Of a DNA stretch of 64,000 nt, positions 212 to 63,049 are shown in pieces (the first letter of the stretch is position 1; every line of letters starts with the position of its first letter). Under the pieces are notes generated by a model that worked only from the letters and a program-made list of their open reading frames with translations, ran no database searches and was not told the DNA's origin. The DNA is taken from contig JAHRHZ010000040.1 in assembly GCA_024137785.1 (NCBI GenBank), positions 3,388,237-3,452,236 of the forward strand, given 5' to 3'. A program made the translations under genes and the position numbers. Origin of the DNA: Ginglymostoma cirratum (taxonomy: Eukaryota).

Positions 212-214
212 GCG

Positions 215-620: not shown

Positions 621-3429
621 TTTGGGGCAGTGTTAATATGATTTTGGGAAAGGGAAGTCATGTTTTATTTGAGGAAGTAACCAGCAGCTTTGAAAAAGGG
701 AACCTGTAGATAAGGTGTGTATGGACTTCCAAAAGGCATTTGATGGAATTATGAAACGATTATGCCAAAAAGTAGCCGCTTGGCCCATTGTGCCTGCACC
801 AGTGGAAAAACAAATCATTCACCAAGCTCTACTTACTAGTATTTGGCTCATAGCCTTACAGGTTATGGCACTTGAGGTGCATATTCAGACACATTCAAAT
901 GAGTTGAGGATTTCTACATCTAACCTTTTTTCAGGTAATGAGTTCAATATCGCAGCAACTCTTTGTGTAAAAGTTTTCCTTGTCTCCCCTCCAATCTTTT
1001 TACTACTGTCTTTAAATCTTAGCCTTATAGCCCCTTCCCACAACTCTATCCAGGTACCTTTTGTAATGTTATTTTCCAATCAAATCTCCCCTCAATCTCC
1101 ACTGTTCCAAGGTGAACAATCCCAGACCGTCTTATCTTTTCCTCATAGTTGCAATTTCTAGTCCTGGTGGCTTCCTCATAAATGTCATCAGTACCCTGTA
1201 GTGTAATCAATCTTTATTGTAATGGTATGGCTAGACTTGTGTCCATTACTCAAGTTGTGGCCTAACTAATGATTTGTGTAATTCCAACATGATGTCTGAT
1301 AATAAATGAATAGGTTGCACATGCTGCTGTAAGCAGCCTCTGCCAAAGATCTGTGGACATTCACGCCAAGGACCCTTACTACTTGTACACCTCTGGGTGT
1401 TGTTTTAAGTTTAGTTTATTTTGCTTTCCTCCCAACATAGACAATTCACTTCTCCAGTCGAATTCTGTTTACTGCTTTTCTGCTGACGTGACAAGCTCAT
1501 TTGATATCATCTTGCAGTCTGCTGCTATATTCCTCACTAACAACTATACAGCCAATTTCATGTCCAGACTTCTAGATTATGCATCTTTCTCTTTAGATCC
1601 AAATTGTTAATACATACTGCAAAAAAGTTAGGGGCGTAATATTGAGCTTTGCAGAATTCCTCTGAAATCAGCCTCTTACTTGCAATGATTCCTTAGGGTA
1701 ATTGTTAGTGGATATTAAGTTTTTTTTGTTTTTTTTTTGCGCTGGCAGGCTATACCACAGAGTCAGTCTATAATATTTGCAATCTGTATCAGTGTCTTGG
1801 ATTGAGGGACTAAAAAGTTTGGTTGCTAAATTAGCATGAAGAAAGATAGAGTAGTTGTGGCAAGGATATAAAATGACGACAAGGGGATAGAGAAGCAAGA
1901 GCTCTAGTTGCAAAAATGTAAATTTGCATGCTTGACTACAGAGATTAGGGACAATCCATGTATAAACAGCTCAAATTCTGAAAAATACAGATGAGAATAA
2001 TACAGAGAGCAATACAAAGAGTAGCAAAGGATGACAAAATACTAGGAGCTTAATAAAAAGGAGCAAGGAAAGAAGAGATCTCAAGATTAATGATTTCCTA
2101 TTATGTTAGGAAAATGGTTGTTAAGAAGAGATGATGGCACTTGGGAACAGGTATTGGTGAGTGGAATGTAAATGAAGAAATGATGAGCGTGTTTAATAAT
2201 TATTTTGTTTATATTAACTAATAGCCTGAGAAAACACACATTAAATCGGTGACAAGAAATTCAACAAAATGTGAGCAAAGTCACTGACAAATAGCACATC
2301 TTCATGGTCGGATTATTTTCATCCCTGATTTTCAAGGAGTGAGATATTGACAAAGCTTTTTGTTGTATGCTAATCAAAACAAGCGGAAGAATGTGGCATT
2401 TCTGTTAATCATAGTGATTTATATAATAGAAAATGGTGCTGATCGGATGGCAAATGAAGTGGAGAAAGCAAAAGAGACCATTATAGACACCCCCAATTTC
2501 TTCGGTAATTCGAAAAAGATGCAAAACATATTACTTTTTCTATACCGACAATGGGCTGTTGCATAGGAAAGTATGTTGCTTCTAGCAAGCAAAAATGAAC
2601 CATTTCACCAGCCTGATTTGATTATTTTAAGCTGGTACCTTGTGTTATTTTAGTACACTCTCAATTGTTCAGAACATGGCCAATTGTGAGAATGTTAGCT
2701 TTCGCTTGCTGTCTCTGAAATCTTACATATCTTGAAGAACTTGGTGGGTTTTTTTCTTCCTTCATTCATTCACAAGATGAGGGCATTTATTGCCTGTACC
2801 ATATTGCACAGAGGGCAGTTCAGAGTCAGTATTGTGTTTCTTCTGTCGAGCTTAATGTTGGCCATGCAGTATTTTATTATCATTAATGTTTGTTTTTATT
2901 GTACGTTGCTGGTTTGAGATTGAACTGACTGACCAGATATTTTATATTCAGGCTTATTCCTTTTCTAAATACCTATGATTATTGTAAACTTTTCTGGTAG
3001 TGAGAGAATATAATTGAGTGCCCAATGTTCTAATTCACAGTCATGGCAGAGAGGAGTCGAACAAATGCTTTCTCCTGTGAAAGCAAATTGAAACAACCTG
3101 TACTATTTTTGTGTGTCATTTGGGACTTGGTTGTGTAGTGCATTAATCTAGAAGGTACCCATCCAGGCAGATTGAACAGTGGGTAGTGGGGAGAAGATCT
3201 AGACAGTGAAAAATTATTATTACTTTTGTACTGTAACTGATTTGTTTCAAGACTTCAGCATAAAGCCTGCATCTGAGTTATGGTAATGACACTGTATATT
3301 GTAAATTAATTTGAGAGAACAAATTAAAATTGAATGAAAAGACAATAACATTGATAATCTGGGAAGACAGACCTACATTTTTAAAAATGTATCTGTTCAA
3401 GAAAGGCTGATTTTCACTTGCTCTGATGA

Positions 3430-5394: not shown

Positions 5395-5920
5395 TAATCA
5401 ACCCATTTGAGATGTTATGATACACCTATGGAGCTGGTGGGTCTTGAACCCAGCACTTCTGGAGCAAAGGTAGAAACACTTGCTGCGCCACAAAAACCTT
5501 TGGGTCTGCTTTCTGTTTTAACAACAATTGTTGGTAGCTATAAACTAAGAGTGGCTTTTAATTCCAGATTTTATTACTTGATGTTTTATTCCACCAGCTG
5601 CAGTGGTAGGATTTGATCCCATGGCCCAGAGCAATAGCCTGGGCATCTACATTACTAGCCCAGTGCCATTTCCATTAAAGCAACATGGCCTTCTTGTGTC
5701 TGCATCCTGGATACACCACTGGGGCTAGTGGAATTTGAACCCGGGCCTCCTGGCTGAAAGGTAGGGACACTACCCTCGTGCCACAAGAAGACCCTGGGTT
5801 TCTTTTGTAGCTATTTTCTAATCAAGCTGTTCAGAGATGTTATTACATGCCTCTGGAGCAGGTGAGACTTGAACCTGGTGTTTCTGGACCTAAGGCTGGG
5901 ACACTACCACGGTGCCGCAA
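5395..5920 (-). mobile_element. Cluster of three tRNA-derived SINE heads
   Basis: About 5420-5495, 5710-5787 and 5845-5920; reverse complement TGGCRC(A/G)..GTAGTGTCCC..GGGTTCAA (A-box and B-box like). Confidence 0.65.
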
Positions 5921-14512: not shown

Positions 14513-14606
14513 TGAGATAACAAGGTGTAGAGCTGGATGAACACAGCAGGCCAAGCCGCATCAGAGGAGCAGGAAGGCTGACGTTTCAGGCCTAGACCCT
14601 TCTTCA
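14513..14606 (-). mobile_element. Single-arm Penelope-like pLTR, subfamily B
   Basis: gagataacaaggtgtagagctggatgaacacagcagg...gacgtttcaggcctagacccttcttca. Confidence 0.78.
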
Positions 14607-25002: not shown

Positions 25003-25830
25003 ACATAGAAACGTTGCAAGATTAGGCAATTCAACCCCTTGAGCCTGCTCTGCCATTCAATATGCTCATGGCTGATCACTGAGCTCAATGCTCTAATCCT
25101 GTCCTTTTTTTTTTTTCCCCCTTCTTTGTAATATCCCATTAACTGCAAGAGCTACCTCCTTTTTGAAAACGCACGATGTTTTGGCATCAACCACTCTCTG
25201 GTAATGAATTACACAGGCTGACCACTCTGAGTGAAGAAATTTCTCCTCCTTTCAGCCACCACTACTCCTCATTGGGAACATGCTTCCTGCAACTATACTA
25301 CTTAGTTCTGTTAGAATTTCATAAGTTTCTATGAGATTGCCGCCTCATTTTTCTAAATTCTAGTGAATTCAGTTCTAAAGAATGCAGTCGCTCCGCATGT
25401 CAGTCATCTCGGGAATCAATTTGGTAAAACTTTGCTGTACTCCCTCTGCAGCAAGAACATCCTTCCTGGGATAAGGAAAGCAAAACTGCACACAATATTC
25501 CAGGTGTGGTCTAACCAATGCGAGACCTTGTTGTTCCTCTTGGATTTTGTACGCTTTGGAGGTCAACATTTCGGTTTGCTTTCTTTTACTGCCTGCTGCA
25601 CCTACGTGCTTACTTTCAGTAACTAGTGCATGAGGTCACCTAGGTTTCATCGAACACTCTTCTCCCTCCCGCAACCATTTTACAGACATTCAAATAATAA
25701 TCTGCCTTCCTATTTTTGCTGCCAAAGGTGAATAACCACACATTTATGTCCGGGATACTGCATCTGCTGTGCATTTGCCCACTCATTCAGGCCATCCAAA
25801 TCACATTGTAACATCTCTGCATCCTCATCA
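25003..25830 (-). mobile_element. Decayed CR1-type LINE 3' fragment
   Basis: Minus ORF 25375-25569 contains [13 protein letters not shown]. Confidence 0.8.
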
Positions 25831-28010: not shown

Positions 28011-28048
28011 CCAACTTGGAGACAAGTTTTTAAAAAAAAAAATCTTTC

Positions 28049-28244
28049 AGAGATAGTAGAAACTGCAGAAGCTGGAGAATCTGAGATAACAAGGTGTAGA
28101 GCCGGATGAACACAGCAGGCCAAGCAGCATCAGAGGACCAGGAAGGGTCATTTCTGAAGAAGGGTCTAGGCCCGAAACGTCAGCCTTCCTGCTCCTCTGC
28201 TGCTTGGCCTGCTGTGTTCATCCAGCTCTACACCTTGTTATCTC
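28049..28244. mobile_element. Palindromic Penelope-like pLTR element, subfamily B, hammerhead-like core 28154-28181 (+)
   Basis: Inverted arms; core CTGAAGAAGGGTCTAGGCCCGAAACGTC sits in the hairpin loop. Confidence 0.82.
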
Positions 28245-29104: not shown

Positions 29105-29332
29105 GGATAACAAGGTGTAGAGCTGGATGAACACAGCAGGCCAGGCAGCATCAGAGGAGCAGGAAAGCCGACGTTTCGGGTCTGCACCCTTCTCCTGAAA
29201 ATCATTTTCTGAAGAAGGGTCTGGACCCGAAACGTCAGCTTTCCTGCTCCTCTGATGCTGCCTGGCCTGCTGTGTTCATCCAGCTCTACACCTTGTTATC
29301 TCAGACTCCAGCATCGGCAGTTCCTACTATCT
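29105..29332. mobile_element. Palindromic Penelope-like pLTR element with 14-bp TSD, hammerhead-like core 29209-29236 (+)
   Basis: Near-perfect inverted arms of about 95 bp; perfect TSD TTGATAGATTTATA at 29091-29104 and 29333-29346. Confidence 0.85.
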
Positions 29333-31338
29333 TTGATAGATTTATAATTTGTTTTTAGTTTTTTTTTTTTAGTTAGTTAACAGTTGATATTCACGCAAGG
29401 CTGCAGATTTTCTTTAACGAGAACAGAAGTTTATCTCAGATTTTTTAAAAAAGGTAGTTATAATCTTTTACAATGCATTCAAGCAAGGGTTTTCAATCTT
29501 TTCCAACATTCTCCATTATCGCGTCAAATCCAAAGAAATTAGTACCCCTATCTCAACTCGAAGTACCAACATTTCACCCATCTGACAGTCTAATTTTCTC
29601 AATTCAAATAACCTGCAGGTTTCTAATCCAACTCTCCTGCTTTGGGAGGTTCTAAAACTGAACTCTTGAGTTCTGTGAACTGCACTGAACTCTAGGAGGA
29701 AAAAATTGCTTCTGAATTCAATACTGATGTCTTCTAAATTACAAGACAAAAATAAATACTTAATCCCGTATTCTTCTGAAATTAAAAGGAAGTAAATGGC
29801 CTTACATGTAGGTCACCAATACTCCTTGGTCACCATGTTCCAAACACACAGCAGCCATCATCTAGACGGGTGATAGATCCATGGGAACGCCACTGCAGGT
29901 TCCTCTAAGTCACTTGCACCATCATGACTTGGAGGAGGAGTGAGTTATTTCCAACGTTGTTGAATTAAAATCCTGGATCTCACTTCCCAGCAGGATGTAC
30001 CTGCAGCACATGGACTAGTGGTTCGTGAAGGCAGCTCACCACACCACCACCTCAAGAAGTGTTGACCCAATACTGAAGCCAACATACCATCAGTGACATT
30101 TTCAAAAATGTTTACTATGCCTGTTGTAAACCCAACGGCCTAAGCTGCTTTTCATTAATGTCACAGGGTCTGTTGTCTGACAGACTGCTAGATTTAGATC
30201 ACTCTTGCTGTATGATTCTAACCTATTTTTAAGATGAGTAAACCACTATGCAGAAATAACCCACCTGTCAACCTCCATTTTGAAATCCAAATTCCAAAAG
30301 TAATGTATGCACCTTTCATCATAGTTGCCAAGGGGTGGCTTACGGATAAGAACCGTGAGCACCAAAGAGAGAATTTAGGAGATTGCCTTTACAATGAGCA
30401 GATAAGGCAGATAGAAATGGAACTAGGTGACAGCAGTTGCACCCAGTTGGATGATAGAAGCTGAAGCAATGGAGGAAGATACTATGATCAGATGAATTGA
30501 AATGTATTAACAAGTCCAGAGAGATCAATGTTTATCACATCCACAATTGCTTGGGATGTTATTTGTGACTTTGATTAGGATTGTTGCAGTTTATTCACCT
30601 CAGAACAGCCCCACTTGACACTCTGACCAACTAGTAGTGCTGTACTATCATTTTTGCTTCAATTCTTATCATGTTTCAGTTTGAGATTCAGGCATGTCAG
30701 AGGAGAAACAGGTGTTTGAGCCTTAAAGGATGTTACTGAAGTTGAAAATGGTGCTTTGATTTCAAGCATGGGATGTGAAGTGAAAGTTGCTTTGGAGAAC
30801 ATAATTTTATCCTGATTATTACAAAGTGCAGATTGATGTCCTGGTAGTGTATAAATTCTTTACCTATTTTGTTACAATTTGTTAAAGTGATATAGGCCTG
30901 CAAATTGTTTAACTTATAAAAGCGCACAGTAAGTTACCATCAAAGTGGTAAAATATGATGTTTTAAAATGTGAATGCATAATCAAATGTGAATACAAAAT
31001 TATGCACCCTTCCAAGGGGAGTTGACATGCTGTTTCACATTTTCAATTTGTGTTTATCTTTGCTGTCTAATGGGAAATAGCTGAACTCTTCCCTCATCCT
31101 ACTCTTCAAACCCCCATCCCCAAAGCCCTCAACCATCCACCCTTAAGTGATTTCTTGCATGGCTAAAATTCCAACATTTTGTCTTGAATTTTGGGGAATT
31201 TGAATACTGTAAATGGGGGCATTTATTTGCCTTTAGCTTACAGACTTGTGACTTGTTTCTTGCTCTGTATATCCCTGTCTCCTTTTTTGCTTTTCTCTCC
31301 CATTTTCTGTTGTGAATGGTGTTGGTAATGCATCTTAG

Positions 31339-32249: not shown

Positions 32250-33349
32250 TGATTTCTGAAAAGGTAGTTGCTGGCTGAGTTTCCAAGAACTAGTGGAATG
32301 GAGGAGAGAGTAGTTGTGTCCAGCAGCTCAGTAGTTGAAACACTCGTGAGCAAAGAGGAGTAGGACTAGTCTTACCTGATCTCTTGCGGAAATCTGGTCA
32401 TTGGTCCTTTGAGACCTCCCAGCTGTTAGTTGCAGCTTCTTCCCCCACCCCCACCACGATTGACATCCCACCTCCAGCTCGTAATACTGAGCCGACTCCT
32501 AGGCAGAGGTTGACTCCATTTAATCACTGGTCCGTCCAGATTGTCCGCTTCCTAACCCTCACTACCTCACCGCCATACTCCAGCAAACCCAGTCTTTCTC
32601 AACTGCTGGAACACCAGCACAACTAGTACCAGCAGTAGTCTCCTACCTCTGGCTTCCTAGTTTTTCAGTTTGGCTGCTAGGCAGGAAATGGAGAAAAGAG
32701 AATTACAGAGGGCCTGTTGTGGAGGAATCTCTGCTCTGCTGGGAATTCTGGGTACCCCCCTCTCCGACTACTGTGCGCCCCAGTACCCCCCATTTGAATA
32801 TAAATTTCAGGGTCCTGGCAATGGAAATTGTAATGCAAAAAGGGGAATTTGAAGGGTGATTAGAAGCTTTCCTTATTTCAATGAATTACATTCACCAAGG
32901 AAGCAAATAGTTATGAGTTCATTGTCCATCTTTGATATGATCACAGAAATTTATGCTGATATTGTTGTGGTGCATTGAGAGACTGCTGCCTTGCTGGTGT
33001 TTTTTTTTTTTTTTGGGTGAATCATGCGAACTGAAGCCTTGTTTCCATACTTTGGTATCAATACAAGCTGATGAGGCCCTATTCAAAGAACTGGGGAGTT
33101 TATCCCTTGTGACATGGCATATTTTGGTTCCCGTGGATCCTAAAGCAATTGCACGTAAAGCATGGACAGTAAACTGCTTTGGGATGCAACGATCAGTGTT
33201 GTGCAATATAAATGCAGGTTTTAATGGTACAGGAGTTTAGCAATGCAATATCTTAGGAAAGGCTAAACTTGGCAACAGGGTCAGTGGCGATGAAAGGAGG
33301 CAAGGCTGCAGAAGATGTTAGGGCTATTCAGAAATATGGCAATAGGGAG

Positions 33350-33690
33350 AGACGACAGTGCAGTGTAATGTCACTGGATTAGTAATCCAAAACTCCAGGT
33401 GTGTTTGAATATGAATTTGAATCCTACCATGCTGATGGTGAAAGTTGAATCCAATAAAATAAATCTTGCATTAGAAGGTAACCTATTAATCTTGTAACCA
33501 CTGTTCATGGTTGATGAAATCCTAGCTGGTTCACGCATGTCATTTAAGGGAAGCAAATCTGCCATTCATGCTTTGTCTAACCTATTTCTGAAACTGGACA
33601 TATAGCAATATGGTTGGCTCTTATCTCTCACTGTCCAGAGTGGAGTTGGGTTGTTAATACTGGCCTAGCCAGTGGTGCCCATATCAATTT
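33350..33690 (+). mobile_element. tRNA-derived SINE sharing head, body and tail with the LINE at 38110-41350 (another head copy on - at about 5520-5690)
   Basis: gtaatgtcactggattagtaatcca (anticodon-like arm), B-box-like tttgaatcc, tail taatactggcctagccagtggtgcccatatc. Confidence 0.72.
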
Positions 33691-37545: not shown

Positions 37546-38109
37546 CCAATGCTCTAGCTGCCCTTCAGCTGCTCAGACTTTTAATGTCAAGAATTAAAGT
37601 AATTGTGGGTATAGTTGACTTTGAACTTTGGGAAAGTAAACCAGAAAACGCTAGAAGCGTCTGATAAGAATATTTTAGCTGTGGACCTTTCTTCAATATG
37701 GGAAGTGTAACACATCTGAATGAAACAAAGAGAGAGACTAATCTGTTTTAAAAATACCAAAAAAGTTGCTTTCTGTCACATTAATGGACTCAAACTGGAG
37801 CAAACCTGTTTACATGTTGGCATGAAGTGAAATCTCAGTGATCATGTAAACATAAATGATGAAAAGACACAAGATGTAAAAAGACGCGTGGTGCAACAAT
37901 TTGGGAAAAATTGAAAAAAATAAAAAGTCACATTCACTAACCACGAAATAAAGCGAAAAATGAAATGTATAGATGCATCAGCACTGAAAAAAGACTTCAT
38001 CCTGCCTAACTTCCTAATCAACTTGATATGCCCACCCACCACCTGCCAAACAATGAACTGTCTTGAACACAGGAGTCCACAGAAAATGGCAACATGAGGG
38101 ACAGTAAGG

Positions 38110-41100
38110 GAGGCAGTGGCCCAGTGGTATTACCCCAACACTAATCCAGAAACTCTGTTAATGTTGAGGATCGCATTGGTCTGGCCTATATATAAGTCCA
38201 AACCCACAGCAATGTAGTTGACTGACTCTCAACTGCCCTCTGAAATGGCCTAGGAAGACACTCTGTTTGTATTGATCACTACAAAGTCTGAACAAAAAAT
38301 TGAAACTGGATGCACCACCTGGCATTGACCTAGCTGCTGGAAGAGACAATGGCAAAAATAGCCTTGTCAACCCTGCAATGTCGTCCTCCTATCTGGGTGC
38401 TAGTGCCAAAATTAGAGCTGTCTCTCGGACTAGTCCAGCCGCAGCCTAACAGTCGTACTCACTGAATCAGACATTACAATGTCTCAAATACCACCATCAT
38501 CATCTCTGAATATGTGCTCTCCAACCTGCAGGACAGACCCAGCAGAGGTGGCAGCACAGTGGTATACACTTGGAAGGGAGTTCCCCTGGAAGTCCTCAGT
38601 GTTTGACTCCAGACTTCTTGAAGTCTCATGGTTTCAGGTTACACGTGAGCAAAGAAACATCCTACTGATTTACCAAGTATAGTCCACCTTCCACTGAGGA
38701 TGGCAACAGCACATCACATACACTGGGTTTAGGATTTCAATGTCTGCCATCAAAAGTGGCTTGGTAGCAGTGTTACTGATCGACCTGGTCAGGTCCCAAA
38801 GGACACAGTTGCTAGGCTGGGTCTGCAGCAGGTGGTGAAGGAAATAACGAGGGAAGAGCATACTTGACCTCCAGCATACCAATTTGCTGGCTGTAGATGA
38901 CAGTATCAGTGAGAGTCAGTATCGCAAAGTCTTTGTGGAGACGAAGTCCCACCTTCTCATTGAGAATATTCTACATCGTGTTAGTATCACCATGCTAACT
39001 GGGACAGATTTAGCACCACAAGACTGAGCATCCATTGAGGTGCTTTCAGCCATCAACAGCAACAGAATTGTGCTCCCGTGCAATCTGCAATGACATGGCA
39101 CAGCATATCCCCTGCTCAACCATTACCATCAAGCCAGGGGATCAACCTTGCTTCAATGGAGGGTGCAGAAGGGCATGCTAGGAGCAGCACCAAGTGGACC
39201 TAAAAAGGAGGTGTCAACCTGATCAAGCTACCAAAGAGTATTACTTGCATCCCAAACAGCATAGCTAGCATGTGTCGAACAAAGCTAAGTGATCCCACAA
39301 TCAAGGGACCAGATCTAAGCTCTGCAGTCCTGCCACATCCAGTTATGAATGGTGCTGGACAATTCAACAACTCAACGGTGGAGAAAGCTCCACAAATCTC
39401 CCCGTCCTCTATAATGGAAAAACCCAATATATCAGTGCCAAAGATAAGGCTGAAGCATTTGCAACAGTCTTCAGCCAGAAGTGCTAAGTGGATGATCTAT
39501 CTCTGCCTCCAGAGCTCCCCAGCTTCACAGATGCTAATCTTCAGCTAATTCGATTCTCTCCACATGATATCAAGAAACAGCTGGAGGCACCGGATACTGA
39601 AAAGGCTATGGGCCCTGACAACAATCTAGCTATAGTGCTGAAGACTTGTGCTCAAGAGCATGCTACTCCCTTAGCCAGGCACTTTAGTGCAGTTACAGCA
39701 CTGGCATCTACCCAACCAATATGGCAAATTGTCCAGATATGTTCTGTACACACATAGCAGGACAAATCCAACCCAGCCAATTACCACCCCATCAGTCTAC
39801 TCTTGATCACCAGGAAGATGTTGGAAGGTGTCAACAGTAGTGCTATGAAGCAGCACCTGCTTAGCAATAACCTGTTCACTGATGCCAATTTGTGTCCCAC
39901 CAGGGCCACTCAGCTCCTGACCTCATTGACTAGACCACTGACCAGAAACTCAACCGGACTTACTGTATAAATCTAGTAGCTACAAGAGCATTTCAGAGGC
40001 TACAAATACTATGGAGAGTACCTCCACGTCCTGACTCCTAAGCCTGTCCACCACCTACAAGTCAGGAATACGATAGAATACCCCCAACTTGCCTGGGTGG
40101 GTGCTGTTCCAACAACACTCAGCAAGCTTCTTGCCATCCACGACAAAGCAGCCTGCTTGATTTGGCACCAAGTCCAGAAGTGGCAATGGTTCATGGATAA
40201 AAGTACTGAATTCCAGAGGTGAGGTGAGTGTGACAATCCTTGGCTTAACAGCCATGTTCAACGGTGTGTGGCCTCAGAGTCTGTCCAAAACTGGAATTAG
40301 TGAGTATCAGGCCAAACTCTCTGGCTGGGGTCATACCTGGCACATAAGAAAATTGGTTGTGGTTGTTGGCGGTCAGTCATCTCAACTCAAGGGCGTCTCT
40401 TTAGGAGTGCTTCAGGCTAATGTTCTGGGTCCATCCATCTGTTTCTCTTAATGTTCTTCCCTCCATCATAAGGTTTGAAGTGGGGATGTTCACCACTGAT
40501 GCTGCAAATGGTGTTGAACATTGTGCCACATCAGCTACTGAAGCAGTCGATGCTCATGCTGCAAGATCTAGGCTTGAGCTGACAAGTGGCAAGTGACGTG
40601 TGGCATACAAATGCCAGGCAATGACATTTCTAGTGATAGACAATCTAACCACTGCCCCTTGACATTCAGTGGTGTTACCAAATCTGAATCCCCCACTACG
40701 TCCTGGAAGGTTACCATTGACCAAGAACTCAACTGGACTTGCTGTATAAATACAGCAGCAAGAAGAGGAGAGGCTAGGAGTACTGCAGCGAATCACTCAC
40801 CACCTGATTCCCCAAAGCTTGTCTGCAATCTACAAGGTACAAGTCAGGTATGCAATGGAATACTCCTTACTTGAGGAATGGAAGGGTGCAACTCCAACAG
40901 TAATTGAGATTGATACCATTCAGGATGAAGCAGTCCAGTTGATTGGCACCATAACCACTCACTCCTCCTCCAATGCTCAGCAACAGTAGTATGTACTATC
41001 TACAAGAAGCACTGCAGAAAATCACCAAAGATCCTCAGACAGCACCTTTTGTACACCGTCAACCACTTTCATCTATAACGATGAGGGCAGCAAATACATG

Positions 41101-41350
41101 GAAATACCACCACCTGCAAGTTCCCCTCCAAGCCACTCATAATCCCGACTTGGAAATATATTGCCGTTCCTTCACTGTCACTGGGTCAAAATCTTAGAAT
41201 TCTGTCCCTAATGGCATTGTAGGTCAAACCTACAGTGTGTGGATTGCTGTGGCTCAAGAATGCAACTCACCATCACCTTTTGCAACTAGGGATGGGCAAT
41301 AAATACTGGCCTGCCAGCAATGTCCACGTCCTGCAAATGAATGAAAAATG
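38110..41350 (+). mobile_element. Near full-length decayed APE-RT LINE (CR1/L2-group-like) with tRNA-like 5' head and no visible ORF1
   Basis: A-box-like TGGCCCAGTGG at about 38117; APE remnants from about 38390 (VVLTES, QDRPSRGG.TVVY); KAMGPDN at 39601; DKSNPANYHPISLL at about 39761; GVLQANVLGP at about 40403; tail gggcaataaatactggcc...aatgaatgaaaaa. Confidence 0.8.
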
Positions 41351-42502
41351 TTTTGCCCTGCATCTCCCAGATGCCAGTGGTCATACATCAAATCAAGTTG
41401 GCCATGCTAGGAAAGCTCTAATGCGAAGTTGTTGAAGTCAGTATTTGGATCAAAACAGAGGGAAAAGGTGAGATGTTGGTCCTGTAGCTTCCATTGAGCT
41501 TGATTGAAATAGTGGAGGAAGCCAAACTGAGGTTAGTGTGTTGTGGGAAGCAGTTTTTGAAGTAATGGGGAGGTTAGGCTCATAATTTGAGCCAGAATGC
41601 AAGTTATTGGCAAATTGCTCACTTTTTTTTTTGTTCCCCTGCCCACTGTGTATTAATTGCAGATTGCAACATAAGGAACAAATACATTTCGTCCACACAA
41701 AGGGAGTGTATGTGTATTGCTCTCTCCTGTACAGGGCGAGATGACTCAGCGGACCTTGTAACTGCCACAAATGACTAGGAGGTGATGAGGACTGCAGCTG
41801 CAGTTATTTTTAGTTGATTTGTTTCAACATTTTATGACACGTGGGTTCAAGTCCTACTTGCCCCATGTCTTCTGGCCCAGAGGTAGAGACACTACCACTA
41901 CACACAAGCTGTAGGACTTCAGCTGGAAGTGAGGATAATGAATTAGTGAACATTTGGAGAAGAAGAGGGAAGTAACGCTTGCTGTTGGATTTTATTTTTG
42001 AATGAAAAGAACCTGGTGAAAGTAAAAACTAATAAAGTAGGAAGCGAATCTAGCTGCACGAGAGAAGAGCAAGATGATGAAAATGATATGGATGTGGGAA
42101 ATCTCAGCTGAGAAGTTTGGCAGGCAAATTTGAAGTAGTCATACAAACTAGAAGATTCTGGTGGAGATCATCATATTATGATCAAGGAATGTCTCTGGAA
42201 ATTCAGTTTCCAATGTAGAAAGGGAAATCCTTTGTAAGGTAAGAGTCTAATGGGACTATGTTAGTAAAGGGTTCAAAATTAGATACAAAGGTAATTCTTG
42301 ACTAATAGAATTTCATATAAAAAAAAGAGCAACCGACAATAGCTTGGATTTAGATAGTGTTTTTATTTTAAAACAAAGCCACTTGGGCATTTTAAGTATT
42401 CACATACAGAATTGGACAGGGAGCCATATTGTGCCTTAGAAAGAAGGTTGAAAGGTTTACCAAACAAGTAGATTTAAGAGTGTCTCTTGGGGTAAGTTGA
42501 AA

Positions 42503-43220
42503 AGTCAGAGTCACACAGCATGGAAACAAACCCTTTGGTCCAACCAATCCATATCGACCGTAATCCCAAACCAAACTTGCCCCACCTGTCTGCTCCTGGC
42601 CCTTATCCCTCCAGATCTTTCCTATTCATGTGCTTATCCATATGTCTTTTAAGCATTGTAATTGTACCCGCATCTACCACTTCCTCTGGAAGTTCATTCC
42701 ACACATGAACCACCGTCTGTTGGGGGTGGGAGAGGAGGGGGGAGCGAGGAATGCCCCTCATGGTCTGTTTTAACTCCCTGTCCTCTCACCTTACAAATGT
42801 GCCCCCAGTCTTGAAATCCCCCATCCTAGGAAAAAGACAAATGCCGTTAACCCTATCCATACCCCTTGTTATTTTATAAACTTCTACAAGGTTGCTTCTC
42901 AACCTCCATACGCTCCAGTGAAAATAGCCCCAGCCTGTCTAGCCTTTCTTTATATCTCAAACTATCAATACCTGGCAACATCCTGCTAAATCTCTTCTGA
43001 GCCTCCTCCTCCAGCTTAACAATATCCTTACTATAACTGGGCAACCAGAACTAGGCACAGTATTCCAGAAGAAGCCTCACCAATGTCTTGTACAACCTTT
43101 AACATGACTTCCCAACTCCTATCCTCCAAGCACTGAACAGCGAAGGCTAGCATGCCAAATGTCTTTTTTAACCATCTTGTCTGTATGTGACGTAAACTTC
43201 AAAGAATTGTGTACCTGACT
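42503..43220 (-). mobile_element. CR1-type LINE 3' fragment
   Basis: Reverse-strand 3' end (gagtcacacagcatggaaacaaaccctttggtcc) and an LEYCA*FW-like segment. Confidence 0.8.
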
Positions 43221-50184: not shown

Positions 50185-50427
50185 AGATTGCACTTTTCAC
50201 AATCACTGGATGTCTTAAAGTACTTTATAGCCATTCAGTCATTTATTGAAATCACTCATGATACAGAGAGCACTGCAGCTATTTTGCGCTGAGCAAACTC
50301 TCTCAAAGAGGCAGTTTGACAGTGATGCAATGATAACAGTGTTGTCTGTTTTGGCACGTTTATTGAAGATAAATAGTGACCAGAATGCCAGGGATACCGT
50401 CTCTGCGCTTTGAAATAATTCCATGAG
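50185..50427 (-). mobile_element. Probable Deu-domain SINE (SacSINE1/AmnSINE1-like) body and tail
   Basis: Reverse complement resembles the recalled consensus (atgg...tatttcaaag...cctggc...tatttatcttcaa...gtttgctcagcgcaaaatagctgc...atggctataaagtacttt). Confidence 0.55.
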
Positions 50428-50628
50428 GGGACGGTAGTGTAGTGTTAATGCCCTCGGCCTAGTAATCCAGAAGCCCAGGCTCTCATTCTGGGGACAGGGG
50501 CTTGCGTTCCATCAGCGCAGCATGTTGAATTTAAATTCAGTTAAATCTGCAGTATAAAACTAGTTTCAATAACTGTGACCATTAGACAATATTGTAATTT
50601 GTTGTAAGAAGCCATCTTGCTCACTAAT
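50428..50628 (+). mobile_element. tRNA-like head of a second copy of the same SINE/LINE, apparently continuing at 52640-52905
   Basis: ggtagtgtagtgttaatgccctcggcctagtaatccagaagcccagg...; resumes at 52640 and runs into NMWGFVQKSGVLSHRL (APE N-terminus). Confidence 0.68.
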
Positions 50629-50908
50629 ATAGGACAGGAAGGTAAGGGGGTGTGGTGTAGCTCTGATATTTAAGGATGATGTCAGGTCAGTCGTGAGATA
50701 TGATATAGGTTCTGTGGAGAATGAGGTTGAATCCATTTGGGTGGAAATGAGCAATTCTAAGATGGAAAAAGTCACTGATAGGTGTAGTCTATAGGCCACC
50801 AAATAATCTCCCGTTGGGGTGGGCAAAAACCAAGAAATAACTATTGTCTGTTTAAAAAAAAAAAAAAAAAGGTACAGCAATTAACAGGGGGATTTTAATC
50901 TACGTGTT

Positions 50909-51005
50909 GGAGATTGCACAAACTGCCGATGCTGGAGGAACACAGCAGGCCATGCAGCATCAGAGGAGCAGAAAAGTTGATGTTTTGGGTTGGGACCCTT
51001 CAGAA
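50909..51005 (-). mobile_element. Decayed single-arm pLTR copy
   Basis: aactgccgatgctggaggaacacagcaggcc...gatgttttgggttgggacccttcagaa. Confidence 0.65.
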
Positions 51006-51529: not shown

Positions 51530-52420
51530 AAGCCATATGGGTAGAAGTTTTTTATAAAAAAAACAAAATAGGGAACATTCCCATTGCTGGGAGTGTACTA
51601 CAGATTGCCAAATATTCATGGAAAGATAGAGGACAGCTATGTAGGAAAATTTCAAATGTGTAAAAGTAACAGGGGATTTCAACTTTCCTGGCATTAACTG
51701 GGATTGACAGCGTTTACCTGAGGCCTATCTAAGCTGAAAGGCTTGGAGATAAATCGCTTAAAACGGATGAACGAGGTCTTTTTAAGTCGTCATGTAGAAA
51801 GTTCTGCAAGAGAAGCGGGTGTTTTTGGACTTAATTTTCAGCTTGTAGTGTGATTTGGAGAAGCTGAGTGAGCGGACAATATGCATGGCAAATGCCGTAT
51901 AATGTGGGTAAAAATGAAGTTTTTCGTTTTGGTAGAAAAAATGGGAAGGCAGATTATTACGTGGCTATAAACTGAGGGGGGGAATGGTCAACAAGACCTG
52001 GGTACACTTGTGCACCAGTCACTTTAAGCACTCAGATGTAGCAGGCAGTAAAGGAGGCCAACTGTATGTTGGCATTCATAGCAAGAGGATTTGAGTACAG
52101 GGATACCTTACTGCAATTATACAGGGTACTGGTGAAGCCATGCCTGGTATATTGTATACAATTCTGGCCGCCTTATCTGAGAGAGAATGTTCTTGCTATA
52201 GAGGGCATGCAGTGAAGATTTACCAGATTCATTCCTGGGATCGTAGGGCTGGCATGTGAGGAAAGATTGTATTCAGTGGAGTTCAGAAGAATAAAAGCTG
52301 GTGGGGGGGGGCGGGGATCTGATAGAAACCTATAAAATTGTTCCAGGATGAGTCACATTAGATGCAGGAAGGATGTTCCTGATGGTAGGGGGTTGTCCAA
52401 CACCAGGGGTCAGAGTCTAA
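51530..52420 (+). mobile_element. Decayed CR1-type LINE pieces
   Basis: GDFNFPGINW endonuclease remnant at about 51672; LLQLYRVLVKPCLVYCIQFW at about 52108. Confidence 0.75.
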
Positions 52421-52625: not shown

Positions 52626-52916
52626 GGAAAAATATATCGAGTTCACAGATGCCCTTCAGGGAAAGAAAATTGTTCTTCCCTTTTGATCCACCCTATATGC
52701 AACTCCAGACCCATGACACTGCCCTTTGAAGTAGCCTCGCAAGCTATTCAGTTTTATCAAACACAAGTCCCAGATAAATAAAACTGGACTGACTACCTAG
52801 CACTGACTAAGGCACCAGAAACATCTCCACCCTGTCAAGTCCCCCTCAGTAACATGTGGGGATTTGTGCAAAAATCGGGAGTGCTGTCTCACAGATTGTT
52901 AGGTTGTTGTTTGACT

Positions 52917-54340
52917 AGAGTCCTACAGATGTATAGCATGGAAACAGATCCTTTGGTCCAGCTCCTCTGTGCTGACCAGATTACCTAAATTTAGTCCCAT
53001 TTGCCAGCATTTGGCCCATATCCCTCGAAATCAGTCTTATTTGTATACCTGTCCAGATGCCTTTTACATGTTGTTATTGTATCAGCCTCCACCATTCCTT
53101 TGGCAGCTTATTTCATACACACCACCATCCTCTGTGTGGAAAAAGTTGCCCCTGAGGTCCCTTTTAAATTTTACCCTTTTGTCTTTAAACTATGCCATCT
53201 AGTTTTTAATTTCCCCTCCCCGGAGATAAGACCTTGTCTATTTATCCTATCCATGCCCCTCAATTTATAAACCTCTAGAAGGTCACCCTTCAGCCTCTGA
53301 CACTCCAGGGAAAATAGCCCAGCCTATTCAGCCTCTCCCTCTAGCTCAAACCCTCCAACCCTGGCAATGTCCTTGTAAATCTTTTCCTGAACCCTTTTCT
53401 GGTTTCGTACCATCCTTCCCATAGCAGGAACATCAGAATTGAGCTCCGTATTTCAAAAGTGATCTAACCAATGTCCTGTACATCCTCAACATGACCTGCC
53501 AACTCGTATAGTCAATGCACTGACCAATAAAGGCATGCATACCAAACATCGTCGCTATCCTATTTATTTCTGACTCCACTTTCAAGGGACTGTGAACTGC
53601 ACTCCAAGGTCTCTTTATTCAGTAACACTCTGCAGAACCTTACCATTAATTGTACAAGTCCTCCCCTGATTTGCCTTTCCAAAATGCAGCACCTCTCATT
53701 TATCTAAATTAAACTCCATCTGCCACTGCTCAGCCCATCTGATCAAGGTCCATTGTACTCTGAGGTAACCTTCACTGTACAGTAGACCACCAATTTTGGT
53801 GTCATCCTCAAACTTATTAACCGTCCCTCCTATATTCGCATACAAATCCCTTATATAAATAGCAAAAAGCGTTGGACCCAGCACCAATCCTTGCAGCGCA
53901 CCTCTATCACATGCCTCCAGTCTGAAAAACAACTCTCTGCCATCACCGTCTGTCTCCTACCTTAAAGCCAATTTTGTATCCAAATGGCTAGCTCTCGCTG
54001 GATGCCATGTAATCTAATCTGCTAACCATCTATCATGTGGAACCTTGAGAGACACTTTGCTGGAGCCCATATCGACGACATCTTGCTCTGTCTTCCTTAA
54101 CCTTCTTCGTCACTGCTTCTTCAAAAACTCAATCAAGTTAGTGTGACGCTCTTTGCCATGCGTAAGGCCATGTTAACTATCCCGAATCAGTCCTTGCCTT
54201 TCCAAGTGCATGTAAATCCTGTCCCTCAGAATGCAGTCCAACAACTTTACTGACGTCAGATCACTGGTCTGTAGTTCCCTGGCTTTTCCATACTATCTTT
54301 AAGTAATGGCACCGCATTAGTCTCCAGTCTTCTGACACCT
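52917..54340 (-). mobile_element. CR1-type LINE 3' 1.4 kb
   Basis: Minus ORF 53696-53932: QGLVLGPTLFAIYIRDL...KFEDDTKIGG...WAEQWQMEFN. Confidence 0.88.
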
Positions 54341-54806: not shown

Positions 54807-55294
54807 ATAACAAGCATGGGGCTGGATGAANNNNNNNNNNNNNNNNNNNNNNNNNNNNNNNNNNNNNNNNNNNNNNNNNNNNNNNNNNNNNNNNNNNNNN
54901 NNNNNNNNNNNNNNNNNNNNNNNNNNNNNNNNNNNNNNNNNNNNNNNNNNNNNNNNNNNNNNNNNNNNNNNNNNNNNNNNNNNNNNNNNNNNNNNNNNNN
55001 NNNNNNNNNNNNNNNNNNNNNNNNNNNNNNNNNNNNNNNNNNNNNNNNNNNNNNNNNNNNNNNNNNNNNNNNNNNNNNNNNNNNNNNNNNNNNNNNNNNN
55101 NNNNNNNNNNNNNNNNNNNNNNNNNNNNNNNNNNNNNNNNNNNNNNNNNNNNNNNNNNNNNNNNNNNNNNNNNNNNNNNNNNNNNNNNNNNNNNNNNNNN
55201 NNNNNNNNNNNNNNNNNNNNNNNNNNNNNNGTTCATCCAGCCCCATGCTTGTTATCTCGGGTTCTCCAGCATCTGCAGTACCTTTTTATCTCTG
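54807..55294. mobile_element. Palindromic pLTR element, subfamily A, spanning a 400-N gap
   Basis: Inverted ends flank N 54831-55230; TSD CCAACTAATACTGTT at 54792-54806 and 55297-55311. Confidence 0.8.
54831..55230. other. Assembly gap (400 N)
   Basis: Run of N. Confidence 1.
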
Positions 55295-55709
55295 ACCCAA
55301 CTAATACTGTTAGGCAGGTTCACCCTGAACGGTGCAGTTGAAGAGACAATTTCTGAGGCTTTGAAGTCCCCATCTAGGAATATCATTAACAGCTCCAGTA
55401 AATGTCACTTTTAAAACTATTGCCGTTCTCTTTCCACTGAACTCGGGATCAAAACTGGAAAAATATTGCTTTGAATCAACAGTCCAAAAATTGAGAAAAT
55501 AAAAATCTCCACAAAGTACTATGGCTACAAGAGCAGATCAGAGTCTAGGAATCCTGTCGTGAATAACTCTCCACCTGACTCCCCACAGCCTGTCCAACTG
55601 CGACAAGTCAGGAGCGTGGTGGAATACTCCCCACTTGTCTGGATGAGTGCAGCTTCGACATTCATGATGCCAAACACCATTCTGGACAAAACAGCCCACT
55701 TGATTGGCA

Positions 55710-55927
55710 GAGATAGTAGGAACTGCAGATGGTGGAGAATCTGAGGTAACAAGGTGTATAGCTGGATGAACACAGCAGGCTCAGCAGCGTCAGAGGAGCG
55801 GGAAGGCTGACGTTTTGGACCTATACCCTTTTTCTGAAGAAGGGTCTAGGCCCGAAAGGTCAGCCTTCCTGCTCCTCTGACGCTGCTTGGCCTGCTGTGT
55901 TCATTCAGCTCTACACCTTGTTATCTC
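55710..55927. mobile_element. Palindromic pLTR element, subfamily B, nested in a LINE fragment
   Basis: Inverted arms; TSD TTGATTGGCA at 55700-55709 and 55930-55939; core 55834-55861 with GAAAGGTC. Confidence 0.82.
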
Positions 55928-56049
55928 ATTTGATTGGCACCTCTTCCGTAAACTTTGACACTTCTACCGCTGATGCAAAGGAGAAGTGTATATCTTCTAA
56001 AAAGATGCATTGCAGAAATTCACCAAATCTTCTTGGACAGGACCTGCCA

Positions 56050-59418: not shown

Positions 59419-62400
59419 ATCATTTACATTTTGAAATATTGCTTCCTGTCAGTATTTCCAAGAGGTTATTTTCTGATAGTTCTGTTAGTGGCAGCCATGG
59501 TGTCATTACCCTGTACATTGCAACTGCTAATGTCTTTCTCAAATCATAATAGGTTTTGATGGTGGTGTGGATTGTTGTGGGTAAATCACCACCGACTATC
59601 TTTAATTCGGCTCTTTATTAAGCAATCTCAGACAGTACAGAAACAATTGTTAAAACTTCACTGCAGATAGCAACCAAAATTAGACCCCTCAAGTAAGCAA
59701 GTTAAACCTCAACTCAACTTGGCTGTTACCTGATTAATGGTGGAACTAAGCTAAGACTCCAACCGACGGTGTCTTTGTCCAGTGTTTAATCCTTGTGCAG
59801 TGTTGGTCTTCGTATCTCTGCCCAAAGGCATCCTGAAGGTGAACTATCTCATAATTTTCTCTTTTCCGAATTTGTGGTGTGACATTATTGATAATCTTTT
59901 AGATTCTTTCATCCACAATATTACAAGTCTGCAGCTTACTTTCTTATCAGAAGTAGTTTCTTTGTTTGTTACTATATTTGGCCTTAACTGTCTGTTTGAA
60001 GGCACACAACTTTCCTATGATTAATTCTTTAAATTCTTCTGCAGGGCAATCATTTGTCCTTGTGACATTAGGCAGCCAGATGTCAAAACAGCTTTGTTCA
60101 TGTAGTCTCGAGTCGTTTTCCCAGACATTCTTGTATAACAGTTTGTCCTTATCCTTTAATAGTTTATTCCAAACAGTGGTGTTGCTGCTTTTTTCAATCT
60201 GTGAGCAGTTAAAGTTCGGAAGTTTACACTATCACAGAATTGTAGGACTGTTTCCTTTTTCCCCACCTCTGTGTTATTGCTTTTTAATCAGTTTACCTTG
60301 TCTCAATTCAATTTGCAACAGATTGATGTGTTTGGAGGCATTGAAAAAATACTCAATTACAGGTGTATTGCCTCCTTACAGTAGTAAGAGGTGATGAAGA
60401 CACACAGCCATATGTCATCAGTGGATATATTAAAACTGACATAGTACATTCAAGGAGTCATGGAGATGTAACACTCAAATGTAGAACAGGAGAGATCCTT
60501 GGGTATTAGCCTCTGTCTACTTAGCTTAGTTTGTGCACGACAATATTATCTCCTCTTTGGCACTTGTTCTGGTGGGAGGGAGCAACTGGAGGATAATGTC
60601 TTCAGTCACCTTGTTGTCAATTCACAAAAGTGAAACTCCATTCTGTTCAAGAAATATGCATTAATGAGTAGCCAGATATCTACTTGCATCTCGCCCTAGA
60701 GAATTGTCAGTTCTTGAAGAAATGCACCCTTGAGGAATCACGGTGAAGTATGTTTTTTTTTGCTGAAAAGATATAATGCCATCCCTAATGAGCTGTTTAC
60801 TAACTGAAATCTTTCCTTACCTGATTAATCTATTTCTTTTCATTTTCACTTCTAACATTTCTGAAAAATCACTTGTTCCCGTTTAGAATTGGTGTTTGTT
60901 GGAGATACTGAGAAACTATTTTGTCAGATTTGGTTTGAGCAGCTTTGCTGTTTATCTGCAATTAATCTGAGGATATTTTTGTCTTTGGGGACTGAATGTT
61001 TTTGCCTCATTGAAAATTAAGTACATTTTAAGTCTGTCAAACAAAATATCAAAATATGCTTGTGTTTCTAACATAAGTTGGAGTAAAATGGGACCAAAAT
61101 GAAATGAATTGGGCTCTGTCATGTATACTGACCATCCGTTACATTTCATCACTAAGCTCCATTTGGTAAACATGAAACAATGAATTTATTGTCTCAAATG
61201 CTAAATATAAAAATAAATAATTAAAAATAAATAACGTGAATAATTAACACAGCTCTGAAAAGTCATTCTTCTGTCACTATACAAGGGTGGCACTTGTCCG
61301 GCCAGTATTTGTTGCCCATCTCTAATCCTAAAGAGGGTGTGTTGAGCTGCTGCTTGAACTACCGTATCCTGTTTCGTTTAGGTACACCCACAGTGCTGTG
61401 AGGAAGGGAGTTGCAGGATTTTGATACATAATATTGTTAAAATTGTCCCAAGTTGCAAATATAACATCTTTTTATTAGAGAAAGGCAGAATAGTTCTGGC
61501 CAATTAGCATAACATCTGTCATAAGAAATTATTAAAATCAATTATAAAGCAGGTCATACTTAGAAAATGACAACTTCATAAGGTGGAGCTTTGAAAAAGG
61601 AAAATAGTTTTAACTAATCTATTCTTTTAAAATGGCATTTATGGCAGCTAGAGAGGAACCGATTTAGATGCATTGGACTTCAATACCAAAAGGCTGTTGA
61701 TAAGGCACCACATCAAAGCCACACGGTTAAGAAAACATGGTGTAGGATTAACATATTAGCTTGGAGACATGGTTGCTTTAACTGGTAGGAAGAAGAGCGT
61801 TGGAATAAAGGGGCCTTTATCAAGTTGGTATGCTGTACCCAGTTGAGTGCCAAAGGGATTGGAACTGGCATGTGATTTGGGGTTTACTGGCTGGGCCAGC
61901 ATTTAGTGCTCATTCCTACTTGCACTTGAGAAGGTGGTGGTGGTGAGCTTCCTTGAACTGCACAGTTGGCCTAATGTATGTAAACCCATAATGTTAGAGA
62001 AGGAGCTACCTAGTGCAATGTGATGTCAGTCAAGTAGCCTGCTTTCTTCTGGATGGTGTCAGACCTCTTGAGTGTTTATACAGCTTCACTCATTCAGGCA
62101 ATGGGGAGTAATCCATCTACTCAGTCCTGACTTGTGCCTTGTGAATAGTGAACAGGCTTTGTTACAAGATTCCTTGTCTCCGACATGTTGTAGCCATATT
62201 ATTTATATGGGTAATCTAGTCAAATTTTTGGTCATTGGTGACCCCCAGGATCTTGATATTGAGGAATGAGATTAAACATCAAGGGGCGATGGTTGCAATC
62301 TGTCAAATTGATTAGACACTTGGCCTCATTTAGATTTTTGATTGGCAAGAGTATCAAGGTTTGAGGTGCAGACACAAAAATGGTGCTGAGATCACAACCA

Positions 62401-63049
62401 GATCACCCAAGATTTTTTAATGGTGGAACAGATTGGAAGGGCCAAATAGCCCACTCTTGCTTCCTATGTTCCTAAATCAGGATAGTGAGGCTTGGAGGGG
62501 AACTAACAGAGCTGTTCCTATACAATTGCTTCCCTTGTTCATCCAGGTGGTAAAGTTGCAAGTGTGGAAAAAGTAAATATTTAAGATTGTAGATTGGGTG
62601 CAAATCGGGCAGATTGCTTTTCCTAAATGGTGTTGAGCTTCTTGAGTATTGGAGCTGCAGTCATCCAAGCAAGCAGAGTATTACACCTCTTAACTTTGGG
62701 AAGGCTTTGACAGGCTTTGGGAAGCCAAGATGAGTTCATGTGTAGAATCCCTAGCCTCTGAGTTGCTTGTGAGCAGAGATGATTCAGCTTGTTGAAGATG
62801 ATTATTGCTTGCACTTGTATATGTGAACGTTTCACACCTCTTATCAGTCTTTTTGAGCATGAATTGTTTGAGTATTTGGGGAATGGCAAATGATACTGAG
62901 CAGTCATTGTGCATTCAGCAGCAAACACTCCTGCTTCTGACTTTGAAGGAGGAAAGATTATTGAAGAAGCAGTTGAGTATAGTTGGTTCTGGGGTACTAC
63001 CCTGATGGCATACCTTTTAACTTGGTTTTAATATTTACTTTAATTGTAG

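What the first reader, a model, noticed from the sequence alone, without database searches (positions are those of the whole stretch)
38110..41350. LINE with a tRNA-derived head and no ORF1, sharing both ends with a SINE
Seen: the element opens with an A-box-like GGCAGTGGCCCAGTGGTA and ...CTAATCCAGA, homologous to the SINE head at 33350. SINE-body-like sequence follows (ggtctggcctata...cccacagcaatgtagttgact). The APE endonuclease starts only about 280 bp from the 5' end, then RT, then a tail like the SINE's (aatactggcc..gccag). A second copy shows the same order: head at 50428-50628, an interruption of about 2 kb, then body and APE start at 52640-52905. Established: SINEs normally share only the 3' tail with a partner LINE, and LINEs use Pol II internal promoters. 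Inference: either an autonomous LINE carries a Pol III-type tRNA head and the SINE is its internal-deletion derivative, or the LINE captured a SINE as its 5' UTR. Two copies argue against chance adjacency. The B box is deleted in the 38110 copy.
Basis: partly seen in the sequence, partly recalled or inferred. Interest (0 to 1): 0.7.

Follow-up and report, generated by a model that had tools for sequence, protein, structure and literature searches.

The report
Shark LINE with tRNA-type promoter head
This is an old, broken copy of an abundant shark-and-ray jumping gene that encodes its own copying enzymes yet begins with the tRNA-type promoter normally seen only on small non-coding SINEs, and it may be read by RNA polymerase III, which LINEs are not thought to use.

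Summary
38107-41350 is a decayed copy of the elasmobranch Zenon LINE (CR1 group, one APE-RT ORF, no ORF1), described in 2026 (PMC13343379). All 7 of 7 shark and ray Zenon consensuses in that paper's supplement start with this same A-box/B-box head and body; 0 of 3 hagfish or coelacanth ones do; 'tRNA' occurs nowhere in the paper or supplement. Reads from four runs show two short forms that join the LINE's 5' region to its tail, so the SINEs look like internal-deletion derivatives. Added here: the sense strand has no TTTT (Pol III terminator) for its first 2,940 nt; 0 of 119 related ORFs are TTTT-free. Against: no tRNA scanner recognises the decayed heads, no TSD, no transcript evidence, and the T-run test rests mostly on one copy. 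Missing ORF1 and two-ended SINEs are already known. Pol III transcription is inferred, not shown. The scan noted this architecture before on other DNA (e1-8041298, e1-8042209).

The parts
38107..38172 (+). 5' half of tRNA-type head (A box 38117-38127, remnant of anticodon-like arm); B box and first half of body deleted (about 150 nt)
   Evidence: motif TAATCCAGA(A/G) found in 7 rows of the published table, all elasmobranch Zenon; deleted stretch seen as loose ends before 38177 in 4 of 4 runs
38177..38267 (+). body shared with the short (SINE-like) forms; junction I leaves at about 38240, junction II at 38267
   Evidence: depth peak 38183-38256 and loose ends behind 38223 and 38267; 13-mer from here in 7 rows of the published table
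38268..38385 (+). LINE-only leader, probably coding a basic N-terminal extension in frame with the APE
   Evidence: z 11.9 to 52683-52897; contigs of other copies run from body into this part (tables 5 and 8); frame read by eye
38386..39034 (+). APE endonuclease, frameshifted and with stops
   Evidence: tblastn of full-length relatives, 38466-38864, E to 2e-11; shark fragments 58-61%; no Pfam hit on the fragments
39035..39933 (+). linker and first part of reverse transcriptase
   Evidence: 57-62% identity to Heptranchias and Heterodontus proteins; those proteins match L1 ORF2p in PDB at E 1e-7
39934..40172 (+). nested fragment of another copy of the same family
   Evidence: 67% identical to 40712-40952
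40173..41290 (+). rest of RT and C-terminal region, decayed; ORF end inferred
   Evidence: tblastn 40191-40439, 40750-40983, 41159-41236
41281..41350 (+). 3' tail shared with the short forms, ending in a short A run
   Evidence: z 3.9 to SINE tail; same letters in loose ends of both junctions; alignment
33345..33690 (+). complete short form (head, body, junction I, tail)
   Evidence: junction length equals junction I (by eye)
50425..50632 (+). head and first half of body of the interrupted second copy
   Evidence: z 8.0 to 33340-33556
52632..52900 (+). second half of body, leader and APE start of the interrupted second copy
   Evidence: z 11.9; nhmmer E 1e-10
5521..5684 (-). further head of the family, with a B-box match
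   Evidence: nhmmer E 1e-13; B box
2760..2850 (-). 3' half of another short form with junction I
   Evidence: weak hits only (E 0.2-0.8); junction read by eye
29809..30043 (+). 5'-truncated LINE fragment
   Evidence: nhmmer E 5e-11
55522..56046 (+). 5'-truncated LINE fragment split by a hairpin repeat
61295..62768 (-). three 5'-truncated LINE fragments (61295-61428, 61880-62299, 62465-62768)

Best explanation
A Zenon LINE gained a tRNA-derived head before sharks and rays split and has kept it as its own promoter. Shown: the head is part of the autonomous family, and short forms join the LINE's 5' region to its tail. Inferred: the A and B boxes recruit RNA polymerase III, which starts at the element's first base and reads the whole 3.3 kb because the sense strand avoids T runs; the single APE-RT protein binds the 3' tail and inserts the RNA by target-primed reverse transcription; internal deletions give ready-made SINEs that keep promoter and tail. 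How an uncapped RNA is translated is open: cap-independent initiation, or protein made from copies inside host Pol II transcripts.
For: 7 of 7 elasmobranch Zenon consensuses begin about 5-10 nt before an A box and carry a B-box-like motif; 0 of 3 hagfish/coelacanth ones do (by eye, first 400 nt only). The B-box 11-mers GGTTCGAATCC and GTTCAAATCCC occur 5 times in the supplement text, which holds the first 400 nt of about 1,000 CR1-group consensuses, all 5 in these rows; two other variants occur 0 times. One upstream sequence before 38177 in 4 of 4 runs (71, 211, 114 contigs; 1,693 reads); two body-to-tail junctions; contigs of other copies run from body to APE. Sense strand TTTT-free for 2,940 nt against 669 nt on the other strand; APE-RT span 0 runs against 6.1+-2.2 (base shuffles) and 3.4+-1.6 (dinucleotide shuffles, 19 of 1,000 as low); A, C and G runs are not depleted; 0 of 119 related ORFs are TTTT-free (longest free stretch 1,154 nt); 5 of 452 window tiles have at most one run, all 5 on this element. 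Family pieces in the window 5 runs in 5,865 nt, other LINE pieces 17 in 4,458 nt. A+B pair upstream of 1 of 61 invertebrate relatives, the same as the antisense control.
Against: ARAGORN, Rfam and a profile of 47 prokaryotic tRNAs do not recognise any window head; tRNA origin rests on boxes and a stem-loop read by eye. T-run test uses mainly one decayed copy; without it the other family pieces hold 3 runs in 2,621 nt; the 119 relatives are mostly distant and richer in T (14 have T at or under 27%, all with 3 or more runs). No read or contig shown joins head to APE in another copy (one search shows only the best rows). Pol III products are normally short and uncapped (PMC10886601 passages; established knowledge). 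Zenon lacks ORF1 with or without a head, so ORF1 loss says nothing on the polymerase.
Confidence: 0.55

Rival explanations
1. The head is a fixed part of the LINE but a passenger or a Pol II module: a SINE RNA was fused to the LINE 5' end by template switching, and the element is transcribed by Pol II from a promoter in head or body, or inside host transcripts.
For: LINEs are Pol II units (PMC5786205, PMC10886601); 39% of whale-shark Zenon-like copies lie in introns (10.1101/443036 passage); B box is imperfect in some consensuses; SINE module exchange is common (PMC7245038, PMC5499810).
Against: Boxes kept in five species across sharks and a ray; consensus 5' ends sit where a tRNA would start; T-run depletion is not expected under Pol II.
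Confidence: 0.3
2. The head works as RNA, not as promoter: a tRNA-like fold cut by RNase P (or bound by tRNA factors) frees a defined 5' end from longer host transcripts, as ribozymes do for R2, RTE and Ingi.
For: Several ORF1-less clades that give two-ended short forms have 5' self-cleaving ribozymes (PMC5786205 discussion); anticodon-like stem-loop is kept (by eye).
Against: No full cloverleaf detected; an apparent duplication of the anticodon arm disturbs the fold (by eye); does not explain T-run depletion.
Confidence: 0.1
3. Chance SINE-LINE adjacency here, and chimeric consensuses there (automatic extension walking from the LINE into more abundant SINE copies).
For: Consensuses were extended automatically with MCHelper; short forms dominate depth; no TSD found; direct head similarity in the window is weak.
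Against: Single insertions as long as the consensus are listed for three species; no SINE tail lies between body and ORF in either window copy; both window copies that reach the APE start have a head upstream (2 of 2).
Confidence: 0.05

Closest known systems
Elasmobranch Zenon LINEs (CarCar, HypSab, RhiTyp, ScyCan, SquAca Zenon; Stuart et al. 2026, PMC13343379; passages, outline, three sections and supplement searches seen)
   Same: Same family: shared 5' motifs, about 3.3 kb, single APE-RT ORF, no ORF1.
   Different: The paper does not mention the head, a Pol III promoter or the derived SINEs ('trna' 0 hits in text and supplement; 'sine' only in the reference list). Only the first 400 nt of each consensus were visible.
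Persaeus SIDE / Zenon of Lepidoptera (Wang et al. 2019, PMC6740152; part 2 of 5 read)
   Same: Short element made of the 5' and 3' ends of a Zenon LINE, arisen several times.
   Different: Persaeus has no tRNA homology and no Pol III promoter.
Bipartite SINEs from RTE and Vingi, e.g. Bov-tA, CoeSINE4, SINE2-1_EBu (Kojima 2018 PMC5786205, parts 1-4 of 5; Kojima 2020 PMC7245038, parts 1-2 of 4)
   Same: tRNA head plus LINE 5' part plus LINE 3' part.
   Different: There the head is added to the deleted form and is absent from the LINE; here the autonomous LINE has it, and the clade is CR1 group.
RTE-1_DAn and relatives (one sentence in PMC5786205)
   Same: A LINE that contains a tRNA-like sequence.
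   Different: RTE clade; position and role of the sequence not given in the passage; not examined here.
HE1/HER1, SacSINE1 and CmiSINE/L2-2_CM of cartilaginous fishes (PMC3747384 table passage; PMC5499810 parts 1-2 of 6)
   Same: tRNA-headed SINEs with LINE-derived tails in the same animals.
   Different: Described as sharing only the tail with CR1 or L2 partners and as V, Deu or CORE bodies; sequences could not be compared here.
Cassandra, Helenus, Ajax (PMC10886601; passages)
   Same: Retroelements other than SINEs with small-RNA-derived Pol III promoters.
   Different: Non-autonomous LTR elements of 0.3-1.3 kb with no protein.

Membership tests
Zenon (CR1 group) | Sequence identity with published elasmobranch Zenon consensuses | tested here: met
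   Window motifs found in 7 rows, all elasmobranch Zenon; compared by motif search and by eye over the first 400 nt.
Zenon (CR1 group) | No ORF1; one APE-RT ORF | tested here: met
   At most about 430 nt precede the APE; relatives are single 935-987 aa ORFs, those on short contigs filling 3.3-4.0 kb.
Zenon (CR1 group) | RT groups with named Zenon elements | tested here: inconclusive
   Quick tree only: window copy with 8 shark proteins (support 100) inside a 39-row group (99) apart from the window's other LINE; no named Zenon reference was in the tree.
Zenon (CR1 group) | Poly-A tail | tested here: inconclusive
   Five A at the end of the main copy, a short A-rich end at 2760 (-), a T run after the 33345 copy.
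tRNA-derived (SINE2-type) head | A box and B box at the 5' end | tested here: met
   A box at 38117, B box in the 5684 (-) copy; both in the consensuses, about 53 nt apart.
tRNA-derived (SINE2-type) head | Detectable homology to a tRNA, with isotype | tested here: inconclusive
   No hit on decayed window copies; the consensus could not be scanned.
tRNA-derived (SINE2-type) head | Transcription by RNA polymerase III | not testable with these tools
   Only indirect: T-run depletion.
SIDE / bipartite short element | 5' and 3' LINE ends joined across an internal deletion | tested here: met
   Junctions behind 38223 (1,424 RNA reads) and behind 38267 (74, 323, 306 contigs; 270 reads); junction I in two window copies.
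Single TPRT insertion | Target site duplication enclosing head and tail | tested here: not met
   Best 6-nt match, reached by 370 of 500 shuffles; copy is old, and TSD habit of the family is unknown here.
RTE or Vingi clade | RT clade and 5' ribozyme | not tested
   No RTE/Vingi reference available; set aside because of the match to Zenon consensuses.

The most novel reading that the evidence does not exclude
An autonomous, protein-coding retrotransposon transcribed end to end by RNA polymerase III from a captured tRNA promoter: a 'SINE with its own reverse transcriptase' that purged Pol III terminators from a 2.9-kb coding region, is translated without a cap, has lasted since the shark-ray ancestor and keeps shedding SINEs by simple deletion.
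Probability: 0.4. Interest if true: 0.88.

Novelty: new variant of a known kind. Interest (0 to 1): 0.68.

Why it matters
The working split is LINE = Pol II and coding, SINE = Pol III and non-coding. A LINE with a conserved tRNA-type head and a terminator-free coding strand would break that split, give a natural case of a long Pol III message that must be translated, and offer a one-step route to new SINEs that reverses the published model (head added after deletion). It is directly testable: consensuses are public and a few intact ORF2 copies are reported (3 of 612 in stingray, 1 of 1,419 in whale shark). If the head is only a passenger, it is still an unremarked feature of an abundant shark repeat that will confuse SINE and tRNA annotation.

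Tried and rejected
No genome held for the window, so no genome-wide copy count. tRNA detection failed: ARAGORN (7), Rfam whole window and two small stretches, profile of 47 prokaryotic tRNAs, which did find other SINE heads. Pfam did not see APE or RT in five short decayed fragments. A LINE-specific DNA motif found nothing in viral or metagenome contigs; protein scans of viral contigs found nothing. The shark head/body profile and tail found no relative in 160 invertebrate-type loci; relaxed ARAGORN on them gave only noise; Rfam found no ribozyme in 9 of them. No TSD at four junctions. RNA: no RNA holder listed; the poly-A run showed equal strand counts (1,285 vs 1,258 at the peak bin) and no start pile-up, which says nothing on Pol III. 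Non-AUG start: by eye no in-frame AUG lies between an AUG-GCC-UAG and the APE in three consensuses, but two others are out of frame, the window copy has an in-frame ATG at 38349 (probably CpG decay), and 16 of 41 relatives also lack an in-frame ATG by the same test: inconclusive. The careful tree did not finish; the quick one was used. Literature searches that found no description of the headed LINE: (DNA motifs, 0 papers); Repbase, Dfam, SINEBase, most subscription journals and bioRxiv supplements could not be seen and may hold the short form or the head. Earlier-findings look-ups by sequence and place were empty.

Full report
Observation. The stretch 38107-41350 reads, in order, as an A-box-bearing head, a body, an APE endonuclease, a reverse transcriptase and a tail. 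It is badly decayed: no ORF over 117 codons and no Pfam hit on five fragments. Its coding identity is clear from relatives: 57-62% identity to predicted proteins of Heptranchias and Heterodontus, which match L1 ORF2p in the PDB, and collinear matches to 935-987 aa single-ORF proteins from APE to C-terminus. A 240-nt piece of another copy is nested in the RT. Pairwise tests within the window are mixed: head against the 33350 SINE head z 2.1, against the 50428 head z 2.9, SINE against 50428 head z 8.0, LINE 5' region against 52683-52897 z 11.9, tails z 3.9. No TSD was found at four junctions. The window also holds a further head, the 3' half of another short form and five 5'-truncated LINE pieces. 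Both copies that reach the APE start have a head upstream (2 of 2), though the second is interrupted and not proven to be one element.

Family identity. Stuart et al. 2026 (PMC13343379) report Zenon LINEs in sharks, rays, coelacanth and hagfish, all without ORF1 and with a poly-A tail (passages). Their Supplementary Table 2 (1,004 rows; only the first 400 nt of each visible) holds ten Zenon rows. All 7 elasmobranch rows (five species, 2,886-3,314 nt) begin with the head, body and leader seen in the window; the 3 hagfish and coelacanth rows do not. B-box 11-mers occur five times in the whole supplement text, all in these rows. The word tRNA occurs in neither text nor supplement. The consensuses were extended automatically, so a chimera with SINE copies had to be considered; single insertions as long as the consensus are listed for great white, whale shark and dogfish, which speaks against it. 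Compared with these rows by eye, the 38110 copy lacks about 150 nt (B box and first half of body), which is why the APE seemed only 280 bp from the start. My own tree groups the copy with shark proteins (support 100) but holds no named Zenon and is the quick version.

Reads. Four runs laid on 37850-38950 at 80% likeness (only the best rows are printed) show: one upstream sequence before 38177 in all four (71, 211, 114 contigs, 1,693 reads; agreement 0.65-0.84), the same stretch that the SINE at 33345 and the piece at 52632 carry; a junction from body to tail behind 38223 (1,424 RNA reads), also present in two window copies; a second junction 27 nt further on, behind 38267 (74, 323, 306 contigs, 270 reads); and contigs of other copies that run from body into the APE. 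Two different exits from the LINE's 5' region into the same tail are what internal deletion gives, at least for the second form. No printed record joins head to APE in another copy. The deletion in the head is shared with the orthologous copy in another organism. The poly-A run gives equal strand counts and no start pile-up, which does not bear on Pol III.

Is the head a working Pol III promoter? No scanner recognises the decayed window heads. In the consensuses an A box lies about 5-10 nt from the 5' end, a 5-bp stem with 7-nt loop follows, and a B box lies about 53 nt after the A box; the dogfish rows suggest a duplication of the stem-loop that explains the long spacing (by eye). The isotype was not determined. 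An independent test is the Pol III terminator, a run of four or more T (established knowledge). The element's sense strand has none for its first 2,940 nt (669 nt on the other strand); the APE-RT span has 0 against 6.1+-2.2 from base shuffles and 3.4+-1.6 from dinucleotide shuffles (19 of 1,000 as low), while A, C and G runs are not depleted. Of 160 related loci from metagenome and genome contigs, 119 had a matched span of 1.5-3.3 kb and were counted: none is TTTT-free, the longest free stretch is 1,154 nt, the lowest observed/expected ratio 0.46. Of 452 tiles of the window, 5 have at most one run, all on this element. Family pieces in the window hold 5 runs in 5,865 nt, other LINE pieces 17 in 4,458 nt. 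Limits: mostly one copy; most relatives are distant and T-richer; codon use could contribute. Upstream of 61 relatives with an APE start, an A+B pair occurs once, as on the antisense control, and the shark head/body profile finds nothing in them, so the head looks like an elasmobranch gain.

Mechanism. Shown: the head belongs to the autonomous family; short forms join LINE 5' and 3' ends. Inferred (0.55): Pol III transcribes the whole element from the internal boxes, the APE-RT protein copies RNAs bearing the tail, and deletions yield SINEs at once. Translation of an uncapped RNA is the weak step; a non-AUG or read-through start was looked for and is inconclusive. In human cells Pol III-made RNAs retrotranspose without ORF1p while Pol II versions need it (PMC2666806, abstract), which fits but does not discriminate, as all Zenons lack ORF1. 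Rivals: passenger head with Pol II transcription (0.3), RNA-processing signal (0.1), chance or chimera (0.05).

Comparison with what is known. [quoted passage not shown] Shark SINEs described so far share only tails (PMC3747384 passage; PMC5499810, parts 1-2 of 6). The whale-shark and Squalomix preprints (passages) do not mention the head. Nine literature searches found no description; Repbase, Dfam, SINEBase and bioRxiv supplements could not be checked. Two earlier notes of this scan on other genomes reach the same architecture; I saw them after finding the consensuses, and they are not independent support.

Verdict. Known family, unremarked architecture, with one new quantitative hint that the promoter is used across the whole coding element. 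New variant of a known kind; interest 0.68; 0.88 if Pol III transcription of the full element is shown (probability about 0.4).

Noticed in passing
L001:430-540: Two copies of a motif GGGCGGATGAG-hairpin-CAACGGCCATC in the 5' region of an invertebrate-type relative; a similar motif is in the hagfish EptBur_Zenon-2 consensus and absent from the shark rows. Could be a conserved 5' RNA element of other Zenons; no Rfam hit.
   Followed up: partly
window 38245-38385: An AUG-GCC-UAG(C) lies in frame with the basic leader and the APE start in this copy and in three consensuses, but not in two others; possible stop read-through or reinitiation.
   Followed up: partly
window 5775-5721 (-), 5908-5856 (-), 5465-5430 (-), 41840-41865 (+): A second tRNA-derived SINE family, three copies clustered around the Zenon head at 5684.
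   Followed up: no
window 5-214, 6774-6894, 9726-9862, 14513-14618, 28040-28244, 29106-29343, 50931-51001, 55708-55928, 63362-63571: An abundant hairpin (inverted-repeat) family, MITE-like, giving weak microRNA-precursor matches in Rfam.
   Followed up: no
window 10682-11614 (+), 52935-54300 (-), 56698-57151 (-), 42517-43159 (-), 51849-52379 (+), 25275-25805 (-): Fragments of other CR1-group LINEs, used as the T-run control; family names not determined.
   Followed up: partly
window 38000-41500: Five runs of one organism with small assemblies hold 46-84% of the sampled words; if they are RNA runs the locus lies in a transcribed host region. Their kind is not on record.
   Followed up: no
P0002, P0010, P0166, P0175, P0178, P0181, P0203, P0208: Several shark and ray gene models in public sources carry pieces of this LINE's ORF spliced into host genes; probably annotation artefacts, exonisation not excluded.
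   Followed up: no
L081-L160: Many bacterial and archaeal species-representative genomes contain contigs with animal-type LINEs, i.e. host DNA contamination.
   Followed up: no
window 54832-55230: Assembly gap of N, flanked by the two arms of a hairpin repeat.
   Followed up: no
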